From the NCBI GenBank assembly GCA_046484325.1, contig JAWOJB010000063.1, forward strand, positions 874 to 64,873: a stretch of DNA of 64,000 nucleotides. The letters run 5' to 3'. The stretch's first letter is position 1. Every line of letters starts with the position of its first letter. The notes under the pieces are model-generated. The model did no database searches, had not been told where the DNA came from, and was given only the letters and a program-made list of their open reading frames with translations. Origin of the DNA: Acidimicrobiia bacterium. Lineage in GTDB: Bacteria > Actinomycetota > Acidimicrobiia > Spongiisociales > ZC4RG35. This document shows, piece after piece, positions 13,553 through 49,343 of the stretch. Both the position numbers and the translations under genes were made by a program.

Positions 13553-14394
13553 CGCAGCCCTGCGAACAGGTCATCCTCCCGATCGGGCGCCTCGACCCGG
13601 CTGAAGACCCGGACGAACGCCTCCCTCCCCAGCACCTCGGGCTTGACCTCGTCGGGGACGCTGATGAGGAACCAGTCCTCGGGGATCTGGCTGCGGTGGG
13701 CCCGGAGCGCCCGCTCCTTGCGATCGACCCGGTCGGTGACGTCGATCCAGGCGGTGACGTCACGATCTGGCACCCCGGCCGAACGCGCCCGCTCGAGCTC
13801 CTCGTCATCGATCATGCCCATCGCGTGCCGCATCTCGGCGAACCTCACCACCCGGCTCCGCGCCCACGCCGTCCAGTAGAGCTTCGAGGGCTCCCAAGCC
13901 TCCTCGTCCTCCCCGAGTGGGAATCGGGAGAGGTCGGAGACACCGATGTAGGCGGCGACACCGATCCGGTGGACGTTGATGTGATCGGGGTGCCCGTACC
14001 CTCCGAACGGGTCGTAGACCAACATCACCTCGGGTCGGTAACGCCGGATGAGGCGGATCAGGCGAGCGGTGGCGTCCATGAAGTCGGCCTGCCAGAACGC
14101 CTCGGGGTGGCGGTTGGCATCCGTCCCCATCATCCCCGAGTCGCGGTACCCGAGGAACTCGTGGTGGTCGACGCCGAGGATGTCGAGGGCAGATCGCACC
14201 TCCCCTGCCCGCACCTCGGCGAGTCGTGGGCGGATCGCCTCGGGCTGCTCGTAGTTGTGGATCTCGCCCTCGGCCCCGTCGGTGGCGGTGACGACCACCA
14301 CCTGCTCGCCCGCCTCTGCGTAGCGCGAGAGCGTGCCGCCGGTGGAGATGACCTCGTCGTCGGGATGGGCGTGGAACGCCATGAGACCGGGCAT
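13549..14394 (-). CDS. PIG-L family deacetylase/amidase, Mca/MshB-like
   Basis: Track ORF 13549..14976 trimmed to ATG 14394. Contains MAFHAHPDDE, GGYGHPDHI, RAHRSQI and a C-terminal DLFAGL like mycothiol conjugate amidase. The upstream part of the track ORF runs through the repeat array. Confidence 0.85.
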   Translation of the reverse strand: MPGLMAFHAHPDDEVISTGGTLSRYAEAGEQVVVVTATDGAEGEIHNYEQPEAIRPRLAEVRAGEVRSALDILGVDHHEFLGYRDSGMMGTDANRHPEAFWQADFMDATARLIRLIRRYRPEVMLVYDPFGGYGHPDHINVHRIGVAAYIGVSDLSRFPLGEDEEAWEPSKLYWTAWARSRVVRFAEMRHAMGMIDDEELERARSAGVPDRDVTAWIDVTDRVDRKERALRAHRSQIPEDWFLISVPDEVKPEVLGREAFVRVFSRVEAPDREDDLFAGLR

Positions 14395-14458
14395 GAGAGG
14401 CGAGGGTAGCGAGAGGCGAGAGGCAAGAGGCGAGAGGCAAGTGGCGAGAAGCAGGAGG
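14395..14458. repeat. purine-rich imperfect microsatellite, GAGAGGC(R)A-like units
   Basis: The sequence is gagaggcgagggtagcgagaggcgagaggcaagaggcgagaggcaagtggcgagaagcaggagg. It abuts the amidase start codon directly. Confidence 0.8.
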
Positions 14459-14470
14459 TCGTGGACAGGC

Positions 14471-14757
14471 GGTCCCCCTACCCCGCGGCTGTCGCCGCGG
14501 GGGCCCCTTCCCCCACTCCGTGGGGGACAAAGCGCACATTGCATCGCCCACGGCCCACCGCTGCCTTCCTGGTTTGTCCCCTTCCCCCACTCCGTGGGGG
14601 ACAAAGCGCACACCGCATCGCCCACGGCCCACCGCTGCCTTCCTGGTTTGTCCCCTTCCCCCACTCCGTGGGGGACAAAGCGCACAGCGCATTGCCCACG
14701 GCCCACCGCTGCCGTCCTGGTTTGTCCCGTTCCCCCACTTCGTGGGGGACAGAGCGA
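14471..14757 (+). repeat. structured repeat family A: head + hairpin H1 + 3.4 tandem 74-bp units
   Basis: Head GGTCCCCCTACC at 14471-14482. H1 is CCCCGCGG-ctgtcg-CCGCGGGG at 14481-14502. Units lie at 14504-14577, 14578-14651 and 14652-14725 (2-4 mismatches between them), with a partial unit to about 14757. Each unit begins with CCCCCAC-tcc-GTGGGGG. Confidence 0.9.
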
Positions 14758-14956
14758 CGTACGACTGGAACGTGAGACGTGCGCCCACCTTTCATCCCGC
14801 CGACCATCTGCGGCCACCGAGCGTCCACCTCGGTCCGATAGACATGGGGGTGCGGCGTCGAACCTCCGGCGTCGATCCCTCCTCCCGGGGAACGAGCGGG
14901 GCGGCACCTCTCGGTGACCGCCCCGCATCCGTTTCTGCCGGTAGCCTCGCCCCCGC

Positions 14957-15394
14957 ATGCCTTCCGAGCGATTCACCCATCAGGCAGTCGCCACCGCCCC
15001 CATCCATCGCGCATGGGAGGCGCTGCAACGGGCCGAGACGTGGGCGTCGATCGGGGGTGTCGACGAGGTGTTCGACGTCGAGCACGACGATGCCGGACAC
15101 CTGATGGGCTACCACTTCCACGTGAGGGCGGCGGGCCGACGATTCCGCGGCAAGGCGACCGCCGTCGAGGCGGTTCAGCCGGGGCTCATGGCCGTCGACA
15201 TCGACTCGTCCGAGATGCTCGGGCGGATCACGGTGGAACTCACCGAGGCGAGCGAGCACACCACGGTGACGGTGACGGTCGACGCCTCCGCCAAGGGCAT
15301 CCTGTCGAGCATGTTCTTCGGGGTCGTGGCAAGGGCGATCGGGAGCGGCCTCCCCGAGAGCGTCGAGGGCTTCGCCGCCCGGTTGTCGGCCTGA
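14957..15394 (+). CDS. SRPBCC-superfamily (polyketide cyclase/CoxG-like) protein
   Basis: 145 aa. The pattern (FTHQAVATAPIHRAWEALQRAETWASIGG, beta-rich core, C-terminal helix) fits START/SRPBCC proteins. Confidence 0.65.
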   Translation: MPSERFTHQAVATAPIHRAWEALQRAETWASIGGVDEVFDVEHDDAGHLMGYHFHVRAAGRRFRGKATAVEAVQPGLMAVDIDSSEMLGRITVELTEASEHTTVTVTVDASAKGILSSMFFGVVARAIGSGLPESVEGFAARLSA

Positions 15395-23354: not shown

Positions 23355-26300
23355 GTGCGCATCCACGTGCTCGGGCCCGTCACGGCGACGGAGGGCGACC
23401 TGACCGTCGACCTCGGCGGGAGACGGCAGCGCACGGTGCTGGCGGTGCTCGCCGCCCACGCCGGCCGCCCGGTCTCGACCGAGCGCCTCGCCGACGAACT
23501 GTGGGGCGACTCGGCGCCCGTCTCTGCCGCCAACACCACGCAGTCCTACGTGTCGCGCCTCCGCGCCCTGTTGGGCGAGGGGAGCATCGACTCAACCAGG
23601 GCCGGGTACGTACTCCGGCTCCCGGACATCGACGCCCGCGAGTTCGAGCAGCTGGTCCACCGGACCGAGCCCGCGGCCCGCGCCGAGAGCCTGCGCCATG
23701 CACTGGACCTGTGGACCGGAACCCCGTTCGAGGACGTCGACGATGCCCCGAGCATTCAGGCGGAGCGGGTCCGTCTCGAGGAGCTGCGGATGACTGCCCT
23801 CGAGCGCTGGGCCGACGTCGAACTGGAGGTCGGGCACGCCGACGAGGTGGTCCGCTCGCTCGAGGCCGAGGTGGACCGGCATCCCTTCCGCGAGGGTCTG
23901 TGGCTGAGGCTGATCTCGGCGCTGGCCGCCGCCGGCAGACGGGCCGATGCCCTCGATGCCCACCGGCGGGTGCGGACCGCCCTCGCCACCGAGCTTGGCA
24001 TCGAGCCGTCGCGCCAGCTCCAGGAGCTCGAGGAGCGGGTGTTGAACGGCGACCTGCCGGGGCCGGCTCCGGTGCCCGCTCCCGCGCCAGCCGGCCCACG
24101 GTTCCGACGGCCGCTTCCGGCCCCGCTGACCAGCTTCGTGGGACGTCGAGGCGAACTCGATGAGCTCGTGACCGCGGTCGGTCAGAGCCGGCTCGTGACC
24201 CTCACCGGAGTGGGCGGTTCCGGGAAGACCCGGCTCGCACTCGAAGCCACCCGCCGGTTGGCCGAGCACTTCGAAGACGGGGTGGCGTGGATCGAGCTGG
24301 AGGATGTCTCCGATCCGGAACTGGTGGCGGATGCCGTCGCCGCCGAACTGGGTCTGGACGCGCCGCCCGACCAGGTCGCCTCGATGAGCCGGCCCCCCCT
24401 CCTCGCTGCACCCACGCTCACCCGGCTCGAGACGGCACTCTCCGATAGGCACGCCTTGCTCGTGCTGGACACCTGTGACCATCTGGTCGAACCCGTCGCC
24501 CGGATGTTCGAGCCTCTGCTCAACTCCTGTCCGGGCCTGTGGGTTCTGGCCACCAGTCGCGAGCCGCTCGGCCTGATGGGAGAGGTGGTATGGGAGGTGC
24601 CGACACTCGGCACCTCCGCCGCAGACGCGGGCCACGGCGATGCCGTCCGGTTGTTCGGAGAGAGGGCTCGGGCCGTGCGCCCGGACTTTCGGATCGACCC
24701 CTCCAACGAGCCGGTGGTTGCCGAAATCTGTCGGAGGCTCGAGGGGATGCCTCTGGCGATCGAGCTGGCCGCCGCCCGGTTGCGGGTGTTCGACCTCGAC
24801 GAGATCGCAGCCAGATTGGACGATCGGCTCGGGTTCCTCGCCGGCAGCCGCAGCGCCCGACGCCGCCAGGAGAGCCTCCGCGCCACTCTCGACTGGAGCC
24901 ACGCTCTCCTGTCCGAGCCCGAACGACTGCTCTTCGGGAGGCTTTCGGTGTTCAGAGGATTCGACCTCGAAGCAGCCGAGCAGGCGGCGTCCGCCGACCC
25001 CTTGTCGCCCGCGGTGATCGCCGGCCTGCTCGGCTCACTCGTGGAGAAGTCGATGGTCGTCGCCGAGCCCACCGCCGAAGGTCGCCGGTTCCGCATGCTG
25101 GACACGATGCGCGAGTACGGCGAGGCGAGCGCCGATCGTGCCGAGATCGACCGGACGAGGGTCGCCCACCTCGACTACATGACGAGGCTGGCCGAGCGGC
25201 TCGCACGAGAGCTGGTCGGGCCCGGACAGGTCTCGGCGAGCCGCCGCCTGGACGCCGAGCAGGGCAACGTGCGTGCCGCCCTCGAGTGGGCCGTCGCACA
25301 GGGTCAAGTCGAACCTGGGCTCAGGCTCGCCGTGGCCATGGTCGAGTATTGGTCGGTTCGCGGCCGTGTCGGCGAAGCCAACGAGTGGCTCTCACGCCTG
25401 CTCGCCCTGCGACGCAGCGAAGCCTCGGCACTCCTCGCCAGCGCACTCTCCTTCGCGGCCAACTTCGCCGGCCAGGCCGAGGAACGGACGCAGGCGGAGC
25501 AGTATCTGACCGAGGCGCTCGCCATGGCCCGGACGCTCGGAGATGGGCGTGCCCTCGCGTTGGCCCTGTTCGCCGAAGGCTCGCACCGACATCGCAACCG
25601 GTACGGCCTCGATGTGGACGGCAGCGGCCCTCTGCTCGAGCAGGCTTTCGATCTCTTCCGAGAACTCGGAGACACCCTCGGGGAGGCCGACTGCCTGCTC
25701 GAGCTGGCCTGGCTCGGCTGGTGGGGCGAGGCCTTCGCCGAGGCCGCCGAGCTGGCCCGGGGGGCCCGGGCTCTGTACACGCAGGTCGGCCACATCGCCG
25801 GCATGGGCTGGTCGCTTCAGGCCGAGGGCCAGGCCGCATCCCAGCTCGGCGACATGGCCCGGGCCGGGAGCCTCTTCGCACAGGCGCTGGAGATCTCCGA
25901 ACGGCTCGGGGCACGCCCGATGGGTGCGTGGGCATCGTTCCACCTGGGGGAGGCGGTCGCCGCCCAGGGACGGCCCGTCGAGGCCGTCGACCGGTTCTCC
26001 GTCGCAGTCGCTCTGTTCGAGGAGGTGAACAACCGGTGGGGGGCGATGGTCGCCCACGGAACGTGGGGCACGGTCGCCCGACGAACTGGTGACCTCGCCA
26101 CGGCAGTCCGTGAGTATGGAACCTGTCTTCGACAGGCCACGTCGATCGACGCCGGCGGTTCGATGGTGTGGATGGTCGAGTCGATCGCCGGCCTCGCCTC
26201 GCAGCTCGGGGCCTTCGAGCCGGCTGCCCGGCTGGTGGCTGCCGCCGACCAGCGTCGGGTCGAGCGGTCGATGGCACGTCCCGTGTGGGACGACGAGTGG

Positions 26301-26435
26301 TACGAACAGGATCACGCCCGACTCAGGGAAGGGCTCGGGGCGCAGCGCCTCGACGAGCTGATGGAGCAGGGCCGCTCGCTCTCCTGGGACGACGCCATCG
26401 CCCTGGCATTCGAGCTGTGCGATGCACACCGCTGA
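23355..26435 (+). CDS. SARP/AfsR-family regulator: OmpR-type wHTH + BTAD + NB-ARC-like NTPase + TPR
   Basis: 1026 aa with a GTG start. The N-terminus MRIHVLGPV..RRQRTVLAVLA..LADELWGD is SARP-like. P-loop GVGGSGKT, Walker B LLVLDTCDHL, PLAIELAAARL, and a helical-repeat C-terminal half. Confidence 0.9.
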   Translation: MRIHVLGPVTATEGDLTVDLGGRRQRTVLAVLAAHAGRPVSTERLADELWGDSAPVSAANTTQSYVSRLRALLGEGSIDSTRAGYVLRLPDIDAREFEQLVHRTEPAARAESLRHALDLWTGTPFEDVDDAPSIQAERVRLEELRMTALERWADVELEVGHADEVVRSLEAEVDRHPFREGLWLRLISALAAAGRRADALDAHRRVRTALATELGIEPSRQLQELEERVLNGDLPGPAPVPAPAPAGPRFRRPLPAPLTSFVGRRGELDELVTAVGQSRLVTLTGVGGSGKTRLALEATRRLAEHFEDGVAWIELEDVSDPELVADAVAAELGLDAPPDQVASMSRPPLLAAPTLTRLETALSDRHALLVLDTCDHLVEPVARMFEPLLNSCPGLWVLATSREPLGLMGEVVWEVPTLGTSAADAGHGDAVRLFGERARAVRPDFRIDPSNEPVVAEICRRLEGMPLAIELAAARLRVFDLDEIAARLDDRLGFLAGSRSARRRQESLRATLDWSHALLSEPERLLFGRLSVFRGFDLEAAEQAASADPLSPAVIAGLLGSLVEKSMVVAEPTAEGRRFRMLDTMREYGEASADRAEIDRTRVAHLDYMTRLAERLARELVGPGQVSASRRLDAEQGNVRAALEWAVAQGQVEPGLRLAVAMVEYWSVRGRVGEANEWLSRLLALRRSEASALLASALSFAANFAGQAEERTQAEQYLTEALAMARTLGDGRALALALFAEGSHRHRNRYGLDVDGSGPLLEQAFDLFRELGDTLGEADCLLELAWLGWWGEAFAEAAELARGARALYTQVGHIAGMGWSLQAEGQAASQLGDMARAGSLFAQALEISERLGARPMGAWASFHLGEAVAAQGRPVEAVDRFSVAVALFEEVNNRWGAMVAHGTWGTVARRTGDLATAVREYGTCLRQATSIDAGGSMVWMVESIAGLASQLGAFEPAARLVAAADQRRVERSMARPVWDDEWYEQDHARLREGLGAQRLDELMEQGRSLSWDDAIALAFELCDAHR

Positions 26436-35081: not shown

Positions 35082-35104
35082 CGACCCCGGCGCCCGCAGG
35101 CCTC

Positions 35105-35276
35105 GGTCCCCCTACCTCCCGGCTCGCCGGCGCTCGCGGGCGGGACCTTCCCCCAGCCTCCGGCTGGGGAACAAACCAGAGAGTGCGCGGCGCCGTGCGC
35201 AATGCCCTGTGCGCTTTGTCCCCCACGAGGTGGGGGAAAGGGCCCCCACCGCCGGAGGCGGTGGGGTAGGGGGACC
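35105..35276. mobile_element. repeat family A composite: 172-bp inverted element with 12-bp terminal inverted repeats (MITE/BIME-like)
   Basis: GGTCCCCCTACC at 35105-35116 and its exact complement at 35265-35276. The right arm, reverse-complemented, aligns with 14471-14553. GCCTC occurs on both flanks (35100-35104 and 35277-35281). Confidence 0.75.
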
Positions 35277-35289
35277 GCCTCTCCCCACC

Positions 35290-43222: not shown

Positions 43223-44635
43223 GTGAGCCCGTCCGTCACCGACGTCTTCACGAGTCTGCTGGTCATCGGCCTGCTGCTCGTGACGGCGAAGTGGCTGCGC
43301 TCTCGGATCCGGCTGTTCCGCACGCTCTACCTGCCCGCATCCGTCATCGGGGGAGCCCTCGCGTTGCTGGCGGGCCCGCAGGTGCTCGGCCGGCTCGTGG
43401 GGCGCGCAAACGGACCGGGCGTGCTCGAGGGGGGCCTGGTCCCCTCGCCGGTGCTGCTGGTGTGGGACGAGCTGCCAGGCCTCTTGATCAGTGTCGTGTT
43501 CGCATCCCTCTTCATCGGCAAGCGCATCCCGGCAATCGGCGAAATCTGGCGCATCGCCGGGCCTCAGGTGGCACTCGGCCAGTCGATCGCCTGGGGGCAG
43601 TACGTCATCGGGTTGGTGATCGGCCTGACGGTGCTCACCCCGGTGTTCGGGATGAACCCGGCGGCGGGCGCCCTGCTCGAGATCGGATTCGAGGGTGGGC
43701 ACGGGACCGCCGCCGGGCTCTCGAGCACCTTCGAGGACTTCGGCTTCGCCGAAGGATCCGATCTGGCACTCGGGCTCGCGACGGTCGGGCTGGTGGCCGG
43801 GGTCCTACTCGGGACGGTCATCGTCAACTGGGGGGTTCGCACCGGCCGCATCACCCTCGACGGGGCCGGTGAACCCTCCAGACCCGGTGGGGACGACCTC
43901 GCCGATCTCGACGACCGCGAGCCGACCCACGACGCCGGGGGAGCCACCGACCCGCTCTCGATCCACCTCGGCCTCGTCGCAATCGCCATAGTCATCGGCT
44001 GGCTGCTCTTGCAGGCCCTGGCGGCGGTCGAGAGGCTCACGTGGGGCGGCGACGGCGGGCTGGAGCTGCTCGTACACCTACCACTCTTCCCGATGGCGAT
44101 GCTCGGCGGGGTGCTCCTCCAGCTCGTTCTCGATCGGTGGGCACCTGGGGTACACGTCGACCGTCACCTGGTGAACCGGATCTCGGGGACCGCCCTCGAC
44201 CTGATCATCGTGGCGGCGCTCGGAACCCTGTCCCTGGAAGCGATCGGGGGCAACCTCGGGCCGTTCCTGGTGCTGGCAGCGGCCGGGATCATCTGGAATC
44301 TGGGTGCGTTCCTGCTGCTCGCCCCCCGGATCGTTCCCGAGTACGCCTACGAGCGCGGGCTGGGGGACTTCGGTCAGTCGATGGGCATGACCGTGACGGG
44401 CCTGCTCCTCATGCGCATCGCCGACCCAGCCAACCGCTCGGGGGGGATCGAGGCATTCGGATACAAGCAGTTGCTCTTCGAACCAGTGGTCGGCGGTGGC
44501 CTGTTCACGGCCGCGTCAATCCCCCTCATCGCCCAACTCGGAGCGTTGCCGGTGCTGGTGGGCACCATGGTGCTCCTCGTCTTCTGGATCGTCTTCGGCA
44601 TTCGCCGGTTCGGTCCCGAGGATGGTTCCTCCTGA
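43223..44635 (+). CDS. gltS: sodium/glutamate symporter (GltS family)
   Basis: 470 aa with a GTG start. N-terminus LVIGLLLVTAKWLRSRI.LFRTLYLPASVIGG and FEGGHGTAAG are typical of GltS. Confidence 0.8.
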   Translation: MSPSVTDVFTSLLVIGLLLVTAKWLRSRIRLFRTLYLPASVIGGALALLAGPQVLGRLVGRANGPGVLEGGLVPSPVLLVWDELPGLLISVVFASLFIGKRIPAIGEIWRIAGPQVALGQSIAWGQYVIGLVIGLTVLTPVFGMNPAAGALLEIGFEGGHGTAAGLSSTFEDFGFAEGSDLALGLATVGLVAGVLLGTVIVNWGVRTGRITLDGAGEPSRPGGDDLADLDDREPTHDAGGATDPLSIHLGLVAIAIVIGWLLLQALAAVERLTWGGDGGLELLVHLPLFPMAMLGGVLLQLVLDRWAPGVHVDRHLVNRISGTALDLIIVAALGTLSLEAIGGNLGPFLVLAAAGIIWNLGAFLLLAPRIVPEYAYERGLGDFGQSMGMTVTGLLLMRIADPANRSGGIEAFGYKQLLFEPVVGGGLFTAASIPLIAQLGALPVLVGTMVLLVFWIVFGIRRFGPEDGSS

Positions 44636-44697
44636 CCTCCGGTCAAAGGGACGCTCAAAGGCCTGATATGGGTGCCGCATCCAAGGGTTGGGAGAGC

Positions 44698-45267
44698 ATG
44701 GCGAATCTGTCAGAGCGGTACGACATGATCGAACATATGTTCGATCATGTACCCGCGGTCCGTAACCGCAGCGACCCCTGGGAGGCGGAGTGGGAGGTCG
44801 GTTGGGAGCTCCTGCACGGCTGCCCACCCCCGGTGGAAGGCCACGTGATCCCTCCCGGCCTCGACATGTGGGAACCGGGGCCGGTGCTGGCGGCGATCCT
44901 CTCGTCGATCGAGGTCGATGCGCTGACGGGTCACGATCGCGTGGTGGTCCTGCGGGCCCACCAGCGGCTCGCCTCACACCACCAGGCCGAGTGCCTGCAG
45001 GCCAGGTCGGCGATCACCGACGCCTACCGGGACGAACTCGCCATCGCCGAGGAGGAGTTCGCGTGGGAGGTGGCCGAGGCGGAGGTTCGGGCTGCCCTTC
45101 GTCTCACCCGGCGGGCGGCGTCAAGCGACATGACCCTTGCCCACCATCTCCACCATCGGCTTCCAGAGGTGGCCAGGGCCCTGACCGATGGCGACGGGCT
45201 AGATGCCCGCCGGGGTGGGGATGCTCCCGGAGGAGTTCACCCCGGACAACGGTCGCAGGAAGCGTAA
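44698..45267 (+). pseudogene. truncated DUF222 (13E12-type) gene lacking the HNH nuclease part
   Basis: Contains PPGLDMWEPGPVLAAILSSI, VVVLRAHQRLASHHQAE, EVRAALRLTRRAA and LPEVARALTDG. Homology stops where the DUF222 core would continue, and no HNH motif follows in any frame. Confidence 0.65.
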
Positions 45268-45312: not shown

Positions 45313-45750
45313 ATGAAGAACGTATGGAAGGGAATGACGGTCGGAGCGTTCGCCGGCGCCCTCGTAGGAGTGATCATGGACGTGGTAGAGGGTACCGGAC
45401 GCCGTGCGGCCGAGGTCTCGGCACGAGCAGCGACCGGCGTGTCCACCCGCGCCCGGTCCGGGGCGACACACCTCGCCGAGTTCGTCGAGGAGAAGATCGA
45501 CGAATGGGACGTGAAGGACAAGGTCGACCAGGTGAAGGGCGGAGTCGAACATGGGCTCGAGCAGGCGAAGGACGTCTCTGCCCGAGCCGCCTCGGAAGCC
45601 TCGACGCGCGCCAAGTCCGGCGCCGCTCACATGGCCGACCTCGTCGAGGACAAGATCGACGAATGGGACGTGAAGGACAAGGTCGACCAAGTGAAGGGCG
45701 GAGTCGAAGATGCGGTCGACAAGGGCAAGGAGACCCTGAAGCGGAACTAG
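45313..45750 (+). CDS. small membrane-anchored protein with internal 53-aa tandem duplication
   Basis: ATG preceded by aagaaaggac. Gly-zipper helix GMTVGAFAGALVGVIMDVV. aa 35-80 and 88-132 are near-identical (VSARAA..KIDEWDVKDKVDQVKGGVE). Confidence 0.75.
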   Translation: MKNVWKGMTVGAFAGALVGVIMDVVEGTGRRAAEVSARAATGVSTRARSGATHLAEFVEEKIDEWDVKDKVDQVKGGVEHGLEQAKDVSARAASEASTRAKSGAAHMADLVEDKIDEWDVKDKVDQVKGGVEDAVDKGKETLKRN

Positions 45751-45900: not shown

Positions 45901-46141
45901 CTATGACGGATTGACGAGTGCGGTTGCCTCCTCGGCCGTCAGGCCCGATGTCCGGCGGACCGACCCGGTCATGTCGGCGAAGACCACCGTCACCAGCCGC
46001 TCCTCGCCCCGTCGGTCCGACATGACGCCGCGGCGCAGGTCGGCGGGAACCGCCTGGGTCGAGGAGGCGAGCAGGGCACCGGACTGCGAACAGAACCGCG
46101 CCTTCTGAAGGGCTCACCTGACCGCAGGCCTGACAATGCAT
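45901..46141 (-). pseudogene. decayed zinc-ribbon + class III nucleotide cyclase N-terminal fragment
   Basis: MHCQACGQVSPSE in one frame, then after a 1-nt shift ARFCSQSGALL...ERLVTVVFADMTGSVRRTSGL, ending at TAG 45903-45901. Divergent from the intact cyclase-STAND gene. Confidence 0.6.
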
Positions 46142-46201
46142 CGGTGCCGAGGAAGCTACCGACGGCCTCTTCCGCACACCGGTCCCGGTAGCGTTTGCGC
46201 C

Positions 46202-48796
46202 ATGGCGACGGTCACCTTCCTCTTCAGCGATATCGAAGGGTCGACCCGTCTGTGGCAGGCGCACACGCAGGCGATGCCCGCCGCCCTCGCCCGGCACGAC
46301 GAGATCGTGTTCGACGCTGTGACTGCCGCTGGGGGAACCGTCTTCAAGCACACCGGAGACGGGGTGGCCGCCGTATTCGAGTCGGCTCCTGCCGCGCTGA
46401 CCGCAGCCACCGACATACACCGGCGGTTGGCTCCCGAAACCAACCCGGACGTCGGGCCGATCCGGGTGCGGATCGGAGTCCACACCGGCGAAGCCGAGTC
46501 ACGCAGGGACGACTGGTTCGGGCTGACCGTGAACCGGACCGCTCGCATCATGGCCGCCGGCCACGGTGGACAGACCCTTCTCAGCCGGGCCACGGCCGAG
46601 TTGGTCGCCGACCGCCGTCTCGAACTGCGCGACCTCGGCGAGCACCGTCTGTCCGGCCTGGACCGATCCGAACGGATCTACCAACTATGCGCGCCGGGGT
46701 TGTCGGCCGAGTTTCCGGCCCTCACCACCGAGGTTGCCGTCGTTCACCTGCCCCACTCCCTCACCGAACTCATCGGCCGTGACCCGCTGATCGCGCACGT
46801 CCGCAGCAGGCTCGGCGCTGGTCCGGTGGTCACGCTCACCGGGGTGGGAGGGGTCGGCAAGACCACCCTCGCTCTCGCCGTCGCCTCCGAGCCTCCGGAG
46901 GGGATCGAAGGGGTGTGGTTCTGCGACCTGGTCCCCGTCACCGAAGCCGAGCGGGTGGCAGCGACCGTGGCTGCCGCCGTCGGGCTTCCCGCAGACGACG
47001 CTACGCAAGCCGCCGATCGGGTCGCCCAATGGATCGGCGACCGGTCGGTCCTCCTCGTCGTCGACAACTGCGAACATGTCCTCGACGGGGCGGCTCGACT
47101 CGTAGAAAAATTCACCGTTGCCTGTCCAGGCCTCACGGTCCTCGCCACCAGCCGGGCGCCGCTCGGAGTCACCGCCGAACAAGTGATTCCCGTCAGTCCC
47201 CTCGAATCCGACGCCGCCGTCGAACTGCTCCGCCGTCGAGCCGAGGCGGCCGGCGCAGGGAGGATCGATGATCGGCGGGTCGCCGAACTGTGCTCTCGGC
47301 TCGATCGTCTGCCGCTCGCCATCGAACTGGCCGCCGCCCGCCTCCCCCACCTTTCCGTCGACGACATCCTCACCCGTCTCGACGAACGGTTCCGCCTGCT
47401 GTCGGCCCGGCGGGGTGACCCGCGCCACGCCACACTGCTCGCCACCATCGACTGGAGCTACCAACTGCTCGAACCCGACGAGCAGGCGATGTTGAGGACG
47501 GCCGGCGTCTTCACGTCCCGCTTCGACCTGGCGGCGGCGGCCGCCGTCTGGGGCGGTGACGAGTACGACGCCATCGATCTCGTTGGTTCGCTCGTCTCCA
47601 AGTCGCTGCTCATCGCCGAGGTCGACGGCGCCGGGACCACCGGGTATCGGCTGCTGGAGACGGTGCGGGCGTTCGCCCACGAACGCGCCGCCGAACTGGG
47701 CGAGTCCGAGGCCCTCGCCCAAGAGCACGCCGAGCACTACCTCCGCCAGTCGCTCGCCCAACCACCCGTGACCGGCGACCGACAACCGTGGACGTACGTG
47801 CTCGAACAGGATCCGGGCAGGGGATTCCAGGATCCGAACCGTCCGCAGGCGGTGGGTTGGCTCGTCGCGCACGACCGGCTGGTCGACGCCGCACGGTTCG
47901 CCTCGCGGCTGCTGCTCGTCAAGTGGTACCGGCCGGATTCTGTCGAAGGCATCCTCCGCCGCCCGGAGGTGGCGGACATGCTCGACGACGCAGACGAGCG
48001 TGCGCTGTACCTGGCTGCCTCGGCGCTGCAGGCGAACATGGTCGGACGGTGGGACGAGATCCGGGACTTCGCCGAAGCCGCTCTGGCGCTCGAACCCCAT
48101 CCCCACACTGCCGCCATCGCCGCCGGGCTCGCCGCCCAGATGGCCGCCATCCGTGGCGACGACCGGGTGGAGGAGTTCGTGAGCCTGGGATTGGAGCGGC
48201 TGCCGGCCGAAGCGGTCGAACTGCGGCAGTTCCTACGAGAACGGCGCTGTGACGACATCATCCGCCGCAGGCTCGACGACGGGATTCGGCTGCTCGACGA
48301 ACTCCACGCGGAAGGGAGCGTTTGGGCGACGTTCGAGCTGCTGATGTGCTGTGTGCTGACCGGACGTGACCCCGAACCGCTGATCGCCGGCATGACAAAA
48401 CAGCAGCTCGACTCCCAGTTCGGATACCGGGCATCCCTCGCCCGCGCATTCGTGGCCGCGGCAGCAGCCGACGCCGATGAGGCGATCCCGCTGTTGACCA
48501 GAGCGGGAGCCACAGCGCTCCGATTCAGGGGCTCGCTCTTCGAACACGACGTGCTGGTCGGCTGCGCCATACTCGCCGAGGCCCAGGGCCGGTACGAGGA
48601 GGCATCCCGGATGCTGGCGGCGGTGGGCGGAAGCACCCGCACCCCGGCAAGCTTCCTTGTCTACCGCTGGTGCCGTGACCGGGTCCGGGAACGGCTGCCG
48701 CGGGAGCGGGTCGGCGGCCTCCGAGCCGAGATGTCCGGCAGGGACGCGGCGTCGGTGCTGTCCGAGGAACTGGCGCGACTGGGGCGTGAGAGATAG
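46202..48796 (+). CDS. class III adenylate/guanylate cyclase domain + NB-ARC-like STAND NTPase + TPR/helical repeats
   Basis: ATG 46202. VTFLFSDIEGSTRLW..KHTGDGVAAVF..GVHTGEA..NRTARIM is the cyclase domain. P-loop GVGGVGKT, LLVVDNCEHV, PLAIELAAARL. The C-terminal ~400 aa are helical. Confidence 0.88.
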   Translation: MATVTFLFSDIEGSTRLWQAHTQAMPAALARHDEIVFDAVTAAGGTVFKHTGDGVAAVFESAPAALTAATDIHRRLAPETNPDVGPIRVRIGVHTGEAESRRDDWFGLTVNRTARIMAAGHGGQTLLSRATAELVADRRLELRDLGEHRLSGLDRSERIYQLCAPGLSAEFPALTTEVAVVHLPHSLTELIGRDPLIAHVRSRLGAGPVVTLTGVGGVGKTTLALAVASEPPEGIEGVWFCDLVPVTEAERVAATVAAAVGLPADDATQAADRVAQWIGDRSVLLVVDNCEHVLDGAARLVEKFTVACPGLTVLATSRAPLGVTAEQVIPVSPLESDAAVELLRRRAEAAGAGRIDDRRVAELCSRLDRLPLAIELAAARLPHLSVDDILTRLDERFRLLSARRGDPRHATLLATIDWSYQLLEPDEQAMLRTAGVFTSRFDLAAAAAVWGGDEYDAIDLVGSLVSKSLLIAEVDGAGTTGYRLLETVRAFAHERAAELGESEALAQEHAEHYLRQSLAQPPVTGDRQPWTYVLEQDPGRGFQDPNRPQAVGWLVAHDRLVDAARFASRLLLVKWYRPDSVEGILRRPEVADMLDDADERALYLAASALQANMVGRWDEIRDFAEAALALEPHPHTAAIAAGLAAQMAAIRGDDRVEEFVSLGLERLPAEAVELRQFLRERRCDDIIRRRLDDGIRLLDELHAEGSVWATFELLMCCVLTGRDPEPLIAGMTKQQLDSQFGYRASLARAFVAAAAADADEAIPLLTRAGATALRFRGSLFEHDVLVGCAILAEAQGRYEEASRMLAAVGGSTRTPASFLVYRWCRDRVRERLPRERVGGLRAEMSGRDAASVLSEELARLGRER

Positions 48797-48822
48797 GGGA
48801 TCTGCCCCGCTGACCGCCCCCT

Positions 48823-48845
48823 GGTCCAGCCTGAAGGGCTGGACC
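48823..48845 (+). terminator. stem-loop 27 nt after the cyclase-STAND stop
   Basis: GGTCCAGCC-tgaag-GGCTGGACC (9-bp stem). There is no U tract, so intrinsic-terminator function is uncertain. Confidence 0.4.
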
Positions 48846-48915
48846 GGTCCCCCCAACACGACCTCCCGTCGCTCGGCAGCGAGGGACAGTTTGCTTCTCC
48901 CCCAGCCGGGGGGAG
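48846..48915 (+). repeat. degenerate copy of repeat family A (head + H1-like + H2-like hairpins)
   Basis: GGTCCCCCCAAC (10/12 match to the head), a hairpin CCC-g-TCGCT-cggc-AGCGA-GGG at 48865-48885, then agtttgcttc-TCCCCC-agccg-GGGGGA. Confidence 0.5.
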
Positions 48916-49343
48916 CTCTCGACGTGGGTGGTCCGGTCGAAGAAATCCTTCACACGCTCGCGGATCGCTTCGATGCTGTTCCCATCCTCGTCCCCGGCTC
49001 TTGGCGATGAGGATGTGGGCGTCAGGTGCAGCCCCGTCGTCGACGAGGTCGGCAAGAACCAGCTGTCCATGCTCGCCTGGCAGACCAACCGCAACGCCCA
49101 AACCGAAGCCGTCTTCGCACCCAAGCGCGTCGACAACGCCGACCCCGGGCCGCCGCTCCAACACACCGGCTAGATCGATCCCCCAAAACCCCGACCGGAC
49201 ATCAAGACGTAGAGACGCGCCCTCGATGCGTCTCCGGGCAGACCCGCCAGCCTGACACCACCGAGAACCACCCGCACCCCACCTATCCTGACCCATGAGA
49301 CTGGAACCGCGCCTGGTTTCCAACCGCGTTTCCAACCCATCCC

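What the first reader, a model, noticed from the sequence alone, without database searches (positions are those of the whole stretch)
14471..14757. 74-bp tandem array of a structured GC-rich repeat (head, hairpin H1, hairpin H2, tail) that I cannot assign to a known family
The array fills most of a 562-bp divergent intergenic region. Seen directly: a 12-nt head GGTCCCCCTACC (14471-14482) and a perfect hairpin CCCCGCGG-ctgtcg-CCGCGGGG (14481-14502). Three complete 74-nt units follow (14504, 14578 and 14652 starts; 2-4 mismatches between units), then a ~32-nt partial fourth. Each unit opens with CCCCCAC-tcc-GTGGGGG. The GGGGACAAA just after that hairpin is complementary to TTTGTCCCC at the unit end, so alternative long-range pairings exist. 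74 is not a multiple of 3, so every reading frame rotates from unit to unit, which argues against a protein repeat. Related copies lie at 35105-35276 and 48846-48915. There the stems have different sequences but remain paired: H1 becomes CCCCACCGCC-tcc-GGCGGTGGGG, and H2 becomes CCCCAGCC-tcc-GGCTGGGG. That is the pattern expected when structure, not sequence, is selected. The element could be a REP/BIME-like or MITE-like element, or a structured RNA expressed in tandem.
Basis: seen in the sequence. Interest (0 to 1): 0.78.

Follow-up and report, generated by a model that had tools for sequence, protein, structure and literature searches.

The report
Mosaic palindromic repeat with tandem core
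The 74-bp array is the amplified inner part of a broken copy of a small, hairpin-rich, inverted-repeat-bounded intergenic repeat. The family is found only in some uncultured Acidimicrobiia: apparently undescribed, but an ordinary kind of bacterial "junk/mobile" repeat rather than a new type of system.

Summary
The array is real. TRF gives 74 bp x 3.4 copies at 14504-14756, with the head GGTCCCCCTACC and a perfect hairpin in front.

The copy at 35105-35276 is a complete 172-bp element. It has perfect 12-bp terminal inverted repeats, lies in the opposite orientation, is flanked by a 5-bp direct repeat (GCCTC), and fills a convergent intergenic gap. The array locus is therefore a 3'-truncated copy whose internal module was amplified. 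The claimed third copy (48846) is not distinguishable from chance.

Related modular elements turned up only in Acidimicrobiia MAGs. The subterminal hairpin keeps pairing through compensatory changes: 6 of 9 pairs, 0 of 500 shuffles as good.

Both window loci are occupied in a sister species, but with different internal amplifications (38-nt x 2.8 and a heptamer x 8-10 that varies between strains). They are empty in relatives at 74-84% protein identity. A co-occurring strain carries a complete element plus a 2.4-unit array at the same site.

There is no Rfam family, no matching literature, and no transposase or RAYT in reach.

Best reading: a new family of MITE/BIME/BOX-like non-autonomous repeats, prone to slippage and recombination. 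The mobilising enzyme and any host function are unknown.

The parts
14395..14458 (.). Imperfect heptamer (GAGAGGC) tandem repeat. It abuts the PIG-L start codon and ends 12 nt before the element's terminal repeat. It is an associated feature and is not shown to be part of the element.
   Evidence: TRF: period 7 x 7.6 and period 14 x 3.4. The same repeat is present in strain L001. It is absent from the sister species. GAGAGGC is also the 7 nt just outside the L-type terminus at two independent loci.
14471..14482 (+). Left terminal repeat GGTCCCCCTACC (L-type end) of the truncated element.
   Evidence: Exact 12-mer. The only other exact copies in the window are the two ends of the 35105 element.
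14481..14502 (+). Subterminal hairpin H1: CCCCGCGG-ctgtcg-CCGCGGGG.
   Evidence: Read directly. The homologous hairpin in 12 half-elements keeps pairing through compensatory changes.
14504..14577 (+). 74-nt unit 1. Order: CCCCTT, hairpin H2 (CCCCCAC-tcc-GTGGGGG, 14510-14526), ACAAAG, core, GGTTTGT.
14578..14651 (+). 74-nt unit 2 (H2 at 14584-14600).
14652..14725 (+). 74-nt unit 3 (H2 at 14658-14674).
14726..14757 (+). Partial unit 4 (H2 at 14732-14748). The element ends here without a right terminal repeat, so it is 3'-truncated.
   Evidence: No GGTAGGGGGACC lies downstream.
35105..35276 (-). Complete 172-bp element, inverted relative to the array locus. It fills 172 of the 208 bp between two convergent genes.
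   Evidence: It folds into a long branched hairpin with the termini paired, z = -4.2 and -4.8. It is identical in two other assemblies.
35105..35116 (+). Terminal inverted repeat, R-type end (GGTCCCCCTACC).
35265..35276 (-). Terminal inverted repeat, L-type end (GGTCCCCCTACC on the minus strand).
35100..35104 (.). GCCTC, candidate target-site duplication (left copy).
   Evidence: Read directly. The same 5 nt occur at 35277-35281.
35277..35281 (.). GCCTC, candidate target-site duplication (right copy).
   Evidence: Read directly.
48846..48918 (+). Doubtful: at best a decayed R-type half-element, and not distinguishable from chance.
   Evidence: Covariance model R1 gives 8.8 bits, E about 2. The head has 2 mismatches.

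Best explanation
The array belongs to a family of short (about 140-175 bp), non-coding, interspersed palindromic elements. In the collections searched, the family was found only in some Acidimicrobiia.

Anatomy of a complete element, from the outside in:
- a 12-bp terminal inverted repeat, GGTCCCCCTACC;
- a subterminal hairpin (H1) whose stem sequence differs from copy to copy;
- a CCTTCCCCC...GGGGGACAA module containing hairpin H2;
- a dispensable core;
- the mirror image of these modules.

The whole element can fold back on itself.

Shown: the locus at 14471 is a copy that has lost its right end, and its 'H2 + core' module now stands 3.4 times in tandem.

Inferred: the tandem copies arose by slipped-strand mispairing or unequal recombination at the C-run/G-run hairpin bases. 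The copy number then drifts as a VNTR. The window's arrangement derives from an L001-like arrangement (complete element + 22 bp + array) by recombination between two directly repeated termini.

Inferred with less support: the family spread as a non-autonomous element (MITE-like), moved in trans by an enzyme that recognises the invariant termini. The hairpins are kept either by selection on a folded single-strand or RNA form, or by palindrome-correcting template switching.

No host function is required to explain the data.
For: Family and anatomy:
- Exact terminal 12-mer at 3 sites in the window.
- Half-elements with the same module order in L001, L042, Bin47 (L005, L009, L015), L022 and the sister species.
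- In the genome-wide scan, true hits occur only in Acidimicrobiia MAGs; about 30 other hits lack the inner modules.
- The consensus fold of 3 complete elements pairs the termini and forms H1, H2 and H1'.
- H1 covariation: 6 of 9 pairs with double changes.

Truncation and amplification:
- No right terminus at the array locus.
- The sister species has one truncated copy and no array at the same site; its intergenic region is 309 bp against 562 bp.
- Strain L001 has a complete element plus 2.4 units.
- The H2 module was amplified independently in the sister species' orthologue of the 35105 element (38 nt x 2.8), and a second, partial H2 copy follows the first in L042.
- Heptamer copy number differs among three sister strains.

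Mobility:
- Perfect terminal inverted repeats plus a 5-bp flanking direct repeat GCCTC at 35105-35276.
- Both sites are empty in relatives at 74-84% protein identity.
- Copies sit in intergenic DNA, mostly after stop codons or between convergent genes.
Against: - No autonomous partner (a transposase flanked by the same termini) was seen in the window, in any fetched locus, or among the genome-scan hits.
- The target-site duplication rests on one copy. L001's complete element and the Bin47 copies show none.
- Both window loci are also occupied in the sister species, so no recent transposition event is documented. The strain difference at 14471 is explained by recombination, not insertion.
- Only two loci per 64 kb are known, and the genome-wide copy number is unknown.
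- MITEs are not usually characterised by covarying subterminal hairpins, which are more typical of REP or IS200/IS605-type substrates.
Confidence: 0.6

Rival explanations
1. REP/REPIN-type element. Each end is a REP-like unit: a conserved tag plus a short palindrome. The element is an inverted doublet, and clusters are BIME-like. Copies would be made through single-stranded DNA by a single-copy HUH/Y1 (RAYT-like) enzyme that reads the hairpin and the adjacent conserved nucleotides.
For: - H1 is an 8-10-bp stem with a 3-nt loop next to a conserved ...CTACC / GGTAG... motif, and its stem residues vary in complementary fashion. REP sub-families are described the same way (PMC3733652).
- The inverted-doublet architecture forms a long hairpin.
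- In Bin47 the element forms a mosaic with another ~115-bp module, and tandem reiteration occurs. BIMEs behave likewise (PMC8266576).
- Location is mostly downstream of genes or between convergent genes.
- Both loci persist vertically in the sister species, as reported for REPINs.
Against: - Canonical REPs are palindromes PRECEDED by GTAG (PMC8266576). Here the strand that carries GTAG has it 3' of the palindrome (5'-CTAC-stem-loop), so the tag polarity is reversed.
- The invariant part is a 12-nt terminus, while the palindromes differ between copies of one genome. This is the opposite of what sequence-specific RAYT recognition predicts.
- No Y1/HUH gene appears in the annotated 64 kb or the fetched loci.
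- A 5-bp flanking direct repeat is not expected of HUH transposition.
- Tagged REPs were not reported from Actinobacteria in PMC3733652.
Confidence: 0.2
2. Host-selected structured element. The hairpins would act at the RNA or DNA level, for example as U-tract-less terminators or 3'-end protectors between convergent genes, or as protein-binding or promoter-spacing modules. The tandem units would be expressed or used as repeated functional modules.
For: - The 35105 element exactly occupies a convergent gap that lacks any canonical terminator.
- Elements are retained at both orthologous loci in a species with 81-91% identical flanking proteins, with termini and hairpins intact.
- Hairpin covariation.
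- The H2 module was amplified repeatedly and independently.
Against: - The internal content at orthologous sites is completely different between the two species.
- The array itself is absent from the sister species and differs between co-occurring strains.
- Relatives at 74-84% identity manage without any element at these sites.
- No Rfam family matches; the weak Corio-PBP match is a spurious G-run/C-run pairing.
- No promoter was predicted.
- The array fold has only z = -2.4 on the plus strand.
Confidence: 0.15
3. Assembly artefact or a protein-coding repeat.
For: - Short-read contigs from three samples break inside the array.
- All six frames are open across it.
Against: - Five independent assemblies agree on unit-specific SNPs and on the junctions to unique flanks.
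- The period of 74 rotates the reading frame.
- Translations of both strands have no homologue among 5.8 billion proteins.
- JGI called no gene there.
Confidence: 0.03

Closest known systems
BOX elements of Streptococcus pneumoniae (boxA-boxB(n)-boxC; PMC3049150)
   Same: Both are composite intergenic repeats with conserved, mutually complementary end modules and an internal module that stands in a tandem array. The array's copy number varies between strains. Both are predicted to fold into stem-loops, and in both the mobilising enzyme is uncertain.
   Different: There is no sequence relationship (70% GC Acidimicrobiia against low-GC Firmicutes). Here the amplified module differs from locus to locus (74 nt, 38 nt, heptamers). 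The array locus lacks the tail module. BOX has no covarying subterminal hairpin.
REP / BIME / REPIN-RAYT systems of Proteobacteria (PMC8266576, PMC3733652, PMC3116915)
   Same: Both have short GC-rich palindromes with complementary stem variants next to a conserved short motif. Both form inverted doublets that fold into long hairpins, mosaic clusters with other motifs, and tandem reiteration. Both are extragenic, often 3' of genes, and persist vertically for long periods.
   Different: The tag polarity is reversed (5'-CTAC-palindrome instead of 5'-GTAG-palindrome). The conserved part is a 12-nt terminus. The palindrome sequence is not conserved within a genome. No RAYT has been seen. The only clean copy has a flanking 5-bp direct repeat. 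The phylum was not reported to hold tagged REPs.
Bacterial MITEs (e.g. Correia/NEMIS, Nezha; definition in PMC3049150)
   Same: Both are under 200 bp and non-coding, with perfect terminal inverted repeats and a strongly base-paired fold. There is a candidate target-site duplication, the copies are intergenic and dispersed, and presence or absence varies between related genomes.
   Different: No parent IS with matching termini is known. The element is GC-rich rather than AT-rich. The TSD is supported by one copy only. The modular hairpin grammar and internal minisatellites are unusual for a MITE.
MIRU-VNTR loci of Mycobacterium tuberculosis and the small non-coding mosaic repeats (SNR/SRE) of Deinococcus radiodurans (from my own knowledge; not checked here)
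   Same: Both are intergenic 40-100-bp tandem units with strain-variable copy number in a high-GC Gram-positive lineage. The Deinococcus repeats are mosaic short repeats with conserved termini.
   Different: MIRUs are not palindromic, are not bounded by inverted repeats, and often overlap start or stop codons of operon genes. No sequence similarity was tested.

Membership tests
MITE (non-autonomous DDE-transposon derivative) | Short, non-coding | tested here: met
   Complete copies are 139-172 bp. No gene is called there. Translations have no homologues.
MITE (non-autonomous DDE-transposon derivative) | Terminal inverted repeats | tested here: met
   12/12 at 35105-35116 and 35265-35276. The termini are paired in the consensus fold of three complete copies.
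MITE (non-autonomous DDE-transposon derivative) | Target-site duplication | tested here: inconclusive
   GCCTC flanks the 35105 element on both sides. There is no direct repeat around L001's complete copy, and the Bin47 copy has inverted rather than direct flanks.
MITE (non-autonomous DDE-transposon derivative) | Parent IS/transposase with the same termini in the genome | tested here: not met
   None was found in the window, in about 150 kb of fetched loci, or among the genome-scan hits. The complete genome could not be searched, so this is absence within reach only.
MITE (non-autonomous DDE-transposon derivative) | Multiple dispersed copies; presence/absence between related genomes | tested here: met
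   There are 2 loci in 64 kb and 3 contigs in MAG Bin47. Both sites are occupied in the sister species and empty in relatives at 74-84% identity.
REP / REPIN (RAYT-mobilised) | Palindrome of 20-50 nt preceded (5') by a conserved GTAG tetranucleotide | tested here: not met
   The palindrome is present, but GTAG lies 3' of it on its strand. The 5' motif is CTAC(C). Definition from PMC8266576.
REP / REPIN (RAYT-mobilised) | Two REPs in inverted orientation forming a long hairpin | tested here: met
REP / REPIN (RAYT-mobilised) | Cognate single-copy RAYT (Y1/HUH) gene flanked by the repeats | not testable with these tools
   None was found in the annotated window or loci.
REP / REPIN (RAYT-mobilised) | High copy number (tens to hundreds per genome) | not testable with these tools
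   Only 64 kb plus fragments are available. The density is about 1 locus per 30 kb here, and only 1-3 exact-pattern hits per MAG.
BOX-type composite repeat | Conserved end modules flanking a variable number of tandem internal modules, with copy number varying between strains | tested here: met
   3.4 units in the window against 2.4 in L001. The sister element has 38 nt x 2.8 and a heptamer x 8-10. This is an architectural analogy only.
BOX-type composite repeat | Sequence homology to boxA/B/C | not tested
   No BOX sequences were at hand. The taxa and base composition make homology implausible.
Any Rfam RNA family | Score at or above the family's gathering threshold | tested here: not met
   Only two tRNAs pass in the window, and nothing passes in six related loci. 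The best sub-threshold match is Corio-PBP, 16.6-20.5 bits against 63.5. Its alignment does not follow H1/H2.

The most novel reading that the evidence does not exclude
The elements are substrates of a mobilisation or maintenance system not yet recognised in Actinobacteria. That system would read a 5'-CCCCCTACC tag plus a sequence-free hairpin on single-stranded DNA, making this a third 'tagged palindrome' class beside the GTAG and CGTC REPs.

The recurrent heptamer arrays next to or inside the elements would be footprints or by-products of that enzyme rather than plain slippage. These include GAGAGGC, which is also the 7 nt abutting the terminus at two independent loci.
Probability: 0.1. Interest if true: 0.55.

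Novelty: new member of a known kind. Interest (0 to 1): 0.3.

Why it matters
Interspersed palindromic repeats are well studied in Proteobacteria and Firmicutes. As far as my literature and Rfam searches reach, they have not been described for Acidimicrobiia, a widespread and largely uncultured actinobacterial class.

Practical consequences:
- The family fragments short-read assemblies. Three of the four contigs carrying the neighbouring SRPBCC gene end inside the array.
- It creates strain-level length polymorphism that could be used as VNTR markers.
- It remodels promoter-proximal and 3' intergenic DNA.

Conceptually it is a compact case in which invariant termini, covarying hairpins and rapidly changing minisatellite interiors can be compared at orthologous sites. 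It does not, on present evidence, reveal a new kind of biological system.

Tried and rejected
- Metagenome scan with a strict three-module pattern returned only 3 contigs, two of them already known.
- Viral-contig scan: one chance hit.
- Plasmid BLAST of the complete element: no match.
- I searched the 5.8-billion-protein database with translations of both strands of the array, hoping to recover spurious ORFs called over other copies. Nothing was found.
- Literature search for the terminal 12-mer and its 10-mers returned only unrelated eukaryotic primers. There are no papers on Acidimicrobiia MITEs, or on REPIN/RAYT in Actinobacteria.
- Rfam at gathering and at permissive thresholds gave nothing. 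The Corio-PBP lead was rejected after inspecting the alignment.
- tRNA-like reading of the 74-nt unit: neither ARAGORN nor the Rfam search reports a tRNA in the array.
- Sigma-70 promoter and intrinsic-terminator scans gave nothing meaningful.
- Look-up of the 886-aa regulator next to the 48846 site failed because there was no identical protein, so that site was not compared across strains.
- Pfam scan of 10 ORFs from 40-64 kb found no transposase, only a DUF222 protein.
- attC, CRISPR, retron and group II intron remnants were considered and dropped. There are no cassettes or spacers, no adjacent RT or integrase, and no Rfam signal.

Full report
OBSERVATION

GGTCCCCCTACC lies at 14471-14482. 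The perfect hairpin CCCCGCGG-ctgtcg-CCGCGGGG lies at 14481-14502. A tandem array follows.

Tandem Repeats Finder reports 14504-14756, period 74, 3.4 copies, 95% matches, no indels, score 450. The repeat finder places units at 14504, 14578 and 14652. The 18-mer GTGGGGGACAAAGCGCAC occurs four times in the window against 0.11 expected.

The region 14395-14956 is a 562-bp gap between two genes:
- a minus-strand PIG-L/LmbE-type deacetylase gene, start ATG at 14394;
- a plus-strand SRPBCC (Polyketide_cyc2) gene at 14957-15394, which is followed by the ATP synthase operon on the minus strand.

The window is about 70% G+C. The deacetylase is 100% identical to a protein that NCBI names 'MAG: Acidimicrobiia bacterium'.

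The array is not an assembly artefact. Contigs from four other JGI samples contain it with the same unit-specific substitutions and the same junction to unique DNA. Three short contigs end inside it, as expected of a repeat.

The related copy at 35105-35276 is a complete element. Its two ends are a perfect 12-bp inverted repeat: GGTCCCCCTACC at 35105-35116 and its complement at 35265-35276. Together with the head at 14471, these are the only exact occurrences of the 12-mer in the window.

The element lies in the opposite orientation to the array locus. It occupies 172 of the 208 bp between two convergent genes. GCCTC flanks it on both sides, at 35100-35104 and 35277-35281. As a single strand it folds into a long branched hairpin with the termini paired, z = -4.2 and -4.8 against shuffles.

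Module order, from the outside in:
- terminus;
- hairpin H1;
- (G)CCCCTTCCCCC, a loop, then GGGGGACAAA (hairpin H2);
- core;
- TTTGTCCCCC;
- the mirror modules;
- terminus.

The locus at 14471 therefore has a left terminus, H1 and then 3.4 copies of 'H2 + core'. It has no right end.

The third copy claimed at 48846 is not supported. Matches to the head with two mismatches are no commoner than in shuffles (13 against 14.2). A covariance model of the half-element gives it 8.8 bits, E about 2, among dozens of background hits. The true copies score 56-75 bits.

DISTRIBUTION

A scan of 185,579 species-representative genomes used the terminus followed by TTCCCCC. It gave 35 loci.

On inspection, only those from Acidimicrobiia MAGs carry the further modules. 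These are three contigs of isolate 4_1_May_SF_Bin47 and one uncultured Acidimicrobiaceae. The Streptomyces, Nocardia, Gemmatimonadota and other hits inspected lack the inner modules, and the remaining hits each come singly or in pairs from unrelated taxa, so I count them as chance matches.

Other searches:
- The metagenome collection added one more contig, L042.
- Viral contigs and plasmids gave nothing.
- Rfam gave nothing at its thresholds, in the window or in six related loci.
- The best sub-threshold match, Corio-PBP at 16.6-20.5 bits against a cut-off of 63.5, pairs G-runs with C-runs in a way unrelated to H1/H2.
- No paper in the library contains the terminal sequence in a relevant context, and none describes MITEs or REPINs in Acidimicrobiia.

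In Bin47 the element alternates with a second ~115-bp module bounded by CTCAACGCG/CGCGTTGAG. In L022 a half-element sits between two direct copies of a ~108-bp module that itself contains a C5-variable stem-G5 hairpin. The family is therefore mosaic.

STRUCTURE CONSERVATION

Twelve half-elements align well. For H1 in one common register:
- 9 pairs were scored; 6 show changes on both sides that keep pairing.
- 92% of cells are paired.
- None of 500 column shuffles reaches the observed covariation score.
- Sliding the partner by 1-3 columns drops pairing to 44-60%.

Within one genome (Bin47) two R-type copies differ by CCATC...GATGG against CCAGC...GCTGG. The inner helix also covaries between lineages: GGGGGACAAA/TTTGTCCCCC in the window against GGGGACAAC/GTTGTCCCC in Bin47.

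The sample is small and the sequences are related. In DNA palindromes, double changes can also come from template-switch 'correction' (established mutational mechanism; inference here). The result shows that pairing is maintained. It does not show that an RNA is selected.

HISTORY OF THE TWO LOCI

Strain L001 (a 139-kb contig of another sample) carries, in the same gap, in order:
- a complete element;
- 22 bp of spacer;
- a second element with a shortened terminus (CCCCCTACC);
- the window's H1;
- 2.4 units.

The window's arrangement is what recombination between the two directly repeated termini would leave. They share CCCCCTACCCCGC. This is inference.

A sister species has a deacetylase 91% identical and is syntenic. 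It has a 309-bp gap with one truncated element, no 74-bp array and no heptamer array. Relatives at 77% and 74% identity have syntenic gaps of 196 and 251 bp without any element, and none in 13-21 kb around. Relatives at 84% and 81% have a different upstream gene and no element.

The 35105 site is also occupied in the sister species, and the termini are kept. The interior is different, however: an H2 module of 38 nt x 2.8, followed by (GTGAGAC) x 9. The heptamer number differs among three sister strains. A relative at 78% identity has a 65-bp empty gap.

In summary:
- The elements entered both sites before the two species split.
- The termini and hairpins persist.
- The interiors turn over quickly.
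- The H2 module has been tandemly amplified independently in at least two lineages (the window and the sister species), and a second, partial H2 copy follows the first in L042.

MECHANISM

Shown:
- this is an interspersed, lineage-restricted, inverted-repeat-bounded, hairpin-rich non-coding family;
- the 74-bp array is a lineage-specific and strain-variable amplification inside a truncated copy.

Inferred:
- the amplification arose by slippage or unequal exchange at the hairpin-flanking C/G runs;
- the family spread as a non-autonomous element.

Two ways of mobilisation remain open. The MITE model fits the invariant termini with variable interior, the length, the fold and the one 5-bp direct repeat. 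It lacks a parent transposase.

The REP/REPIN model fits the tagged, covarying palindromes, the inverted doublets, the mosaic clusters and the vertical persistence. Several points count against it:
- Canonical REPs are palindromes preceded by GTAG (PMC8266576). Here the polarity is reversed.
- The palindromes are not conserved within a genome.
- No Y1 gene was seen.
- Tagged REPs were not reported from Actinobacteria in the survey of Di Nocera et al. (PMC3733652).

A host function, such as a hairpin terminator between convergent genes, is possible for the 35105 copy. It is not needed, and it is not supported for the array. No consensus promoter or terminator was found, and close relatives lack the element.

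COMPARISON AND VERDICT

Architecturally the closest analogue is the pneumococcal BOX element: conserved ends with a strain-variable tandem array of an internal module (PMC3049150). REP/BIME/REPIN and classical MITEs are the closest in likely mode of spread.

The element fails one defining test of each mobile class: no parent IS for MITE, and wrong tag polarity for REP. I therefore file it as a new family of a known kind, not as a member of a named family. It is a useful annotation and a modest curiosity, not a new type of system.

Noticed in passing
window 14874-14932 (+), about 25 nt upstream of the SRPBCC start at 14957: The motif GATCCCTCCTCCCGGGGAA is followed by a strong hairpin, GCGGGGCGG...CCGCCCCGC. 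It is conserved at the same place in the sister species and in relatives at 74-77% identity. In L054 the hairpin is followed by a T-run, like an intrinsic terminator. This is a candidate leader/attenuator or small RNA with a CCUCCUCCC (anti-Shine-Dalgarno-like) motif. Rfam gives only a weak CcsR1 match (12.8 bits against 65.3).
   Followed up: partly
window 14395-14458; L058 10987-11049 (also L059, L060); L057 640-760: Heptamer tandem repeats recur next to or inside the elements and upstream of the PIG-L gene:
- GAGAGGC x 7.6 in the window;
- GTGAGAC x 8-10 in the sister element, varying between strains;
- GCCAGCG, GCGGGCA and GCGGGTT in an 81% relative.

GAGAGGC is also the 7 nt immediately outside the L-type terminus at two independent loci (window 35277-35283 on the minus strand, and sister L048). 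This could reflect a target preference or footprints.
   Followed up: partly
L009 4289-4404; L015 104-226 and 364-440; L005 1253-1330: In MAG Bin47 a second repeat module of about 115 bp alternates with the element. It is bounded by CTCAACGCG/CGCGTTGAG and contains CGTGGGAnGGCGCCGTTGCGAGTCTCCC. There is no Rfam match.
   Followed up: partly
L022 380-487 and 621-728: Two direct copies of a ~108-bp module flank a half-element. The module's internal hairpin has a C5/G5 base with a different, still complementary, tip in the two copies (TGCC-gga-GGCT against GTC-gtga-GAC). This is the same 'grammar' as H2.
   Followed up: no
window 44041-45267 and 45412-45729: An ORF with a DUF222 domain, the type found in actinobacterial 13E12-repeat/HNH proteins. 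The sister species has a DUF222 gene with a faint HNH (PF01844) hit (L058). Just downstream is a 159-nt x 2 tandem duplication, 80% identical.
   Followed up: no
window 23355-26435 and 46136-48796: Two paralogous large BTAD/NB-ARC/TPR (AfsR/SARP-like) regulators share 63-nt stretches at 75% identity. One contig from another sample (L046) ends inside the first of them.
   Followed up: no
window 14957 to 35290 compared with contig Ga0645781_01097: The coordinate offset between the window and the 139-kb contig of the related strain changes by about 1 kb between these two points. At least one further indel of roughly 1 kb, besides the 107-bp difference at the array locus, therefore separates the strains. 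It was not located.
   Followed up: no
window 48786-48845: A perfect 9-bp hairpin GGTCCAGCC-tgaag-GGCTGGACC lies just after the stop of the 886-aa regulator and immediately before the doubtful '48846 copy'. It is a plausible terminator hairpin without a U-tract.
   Followed up: no
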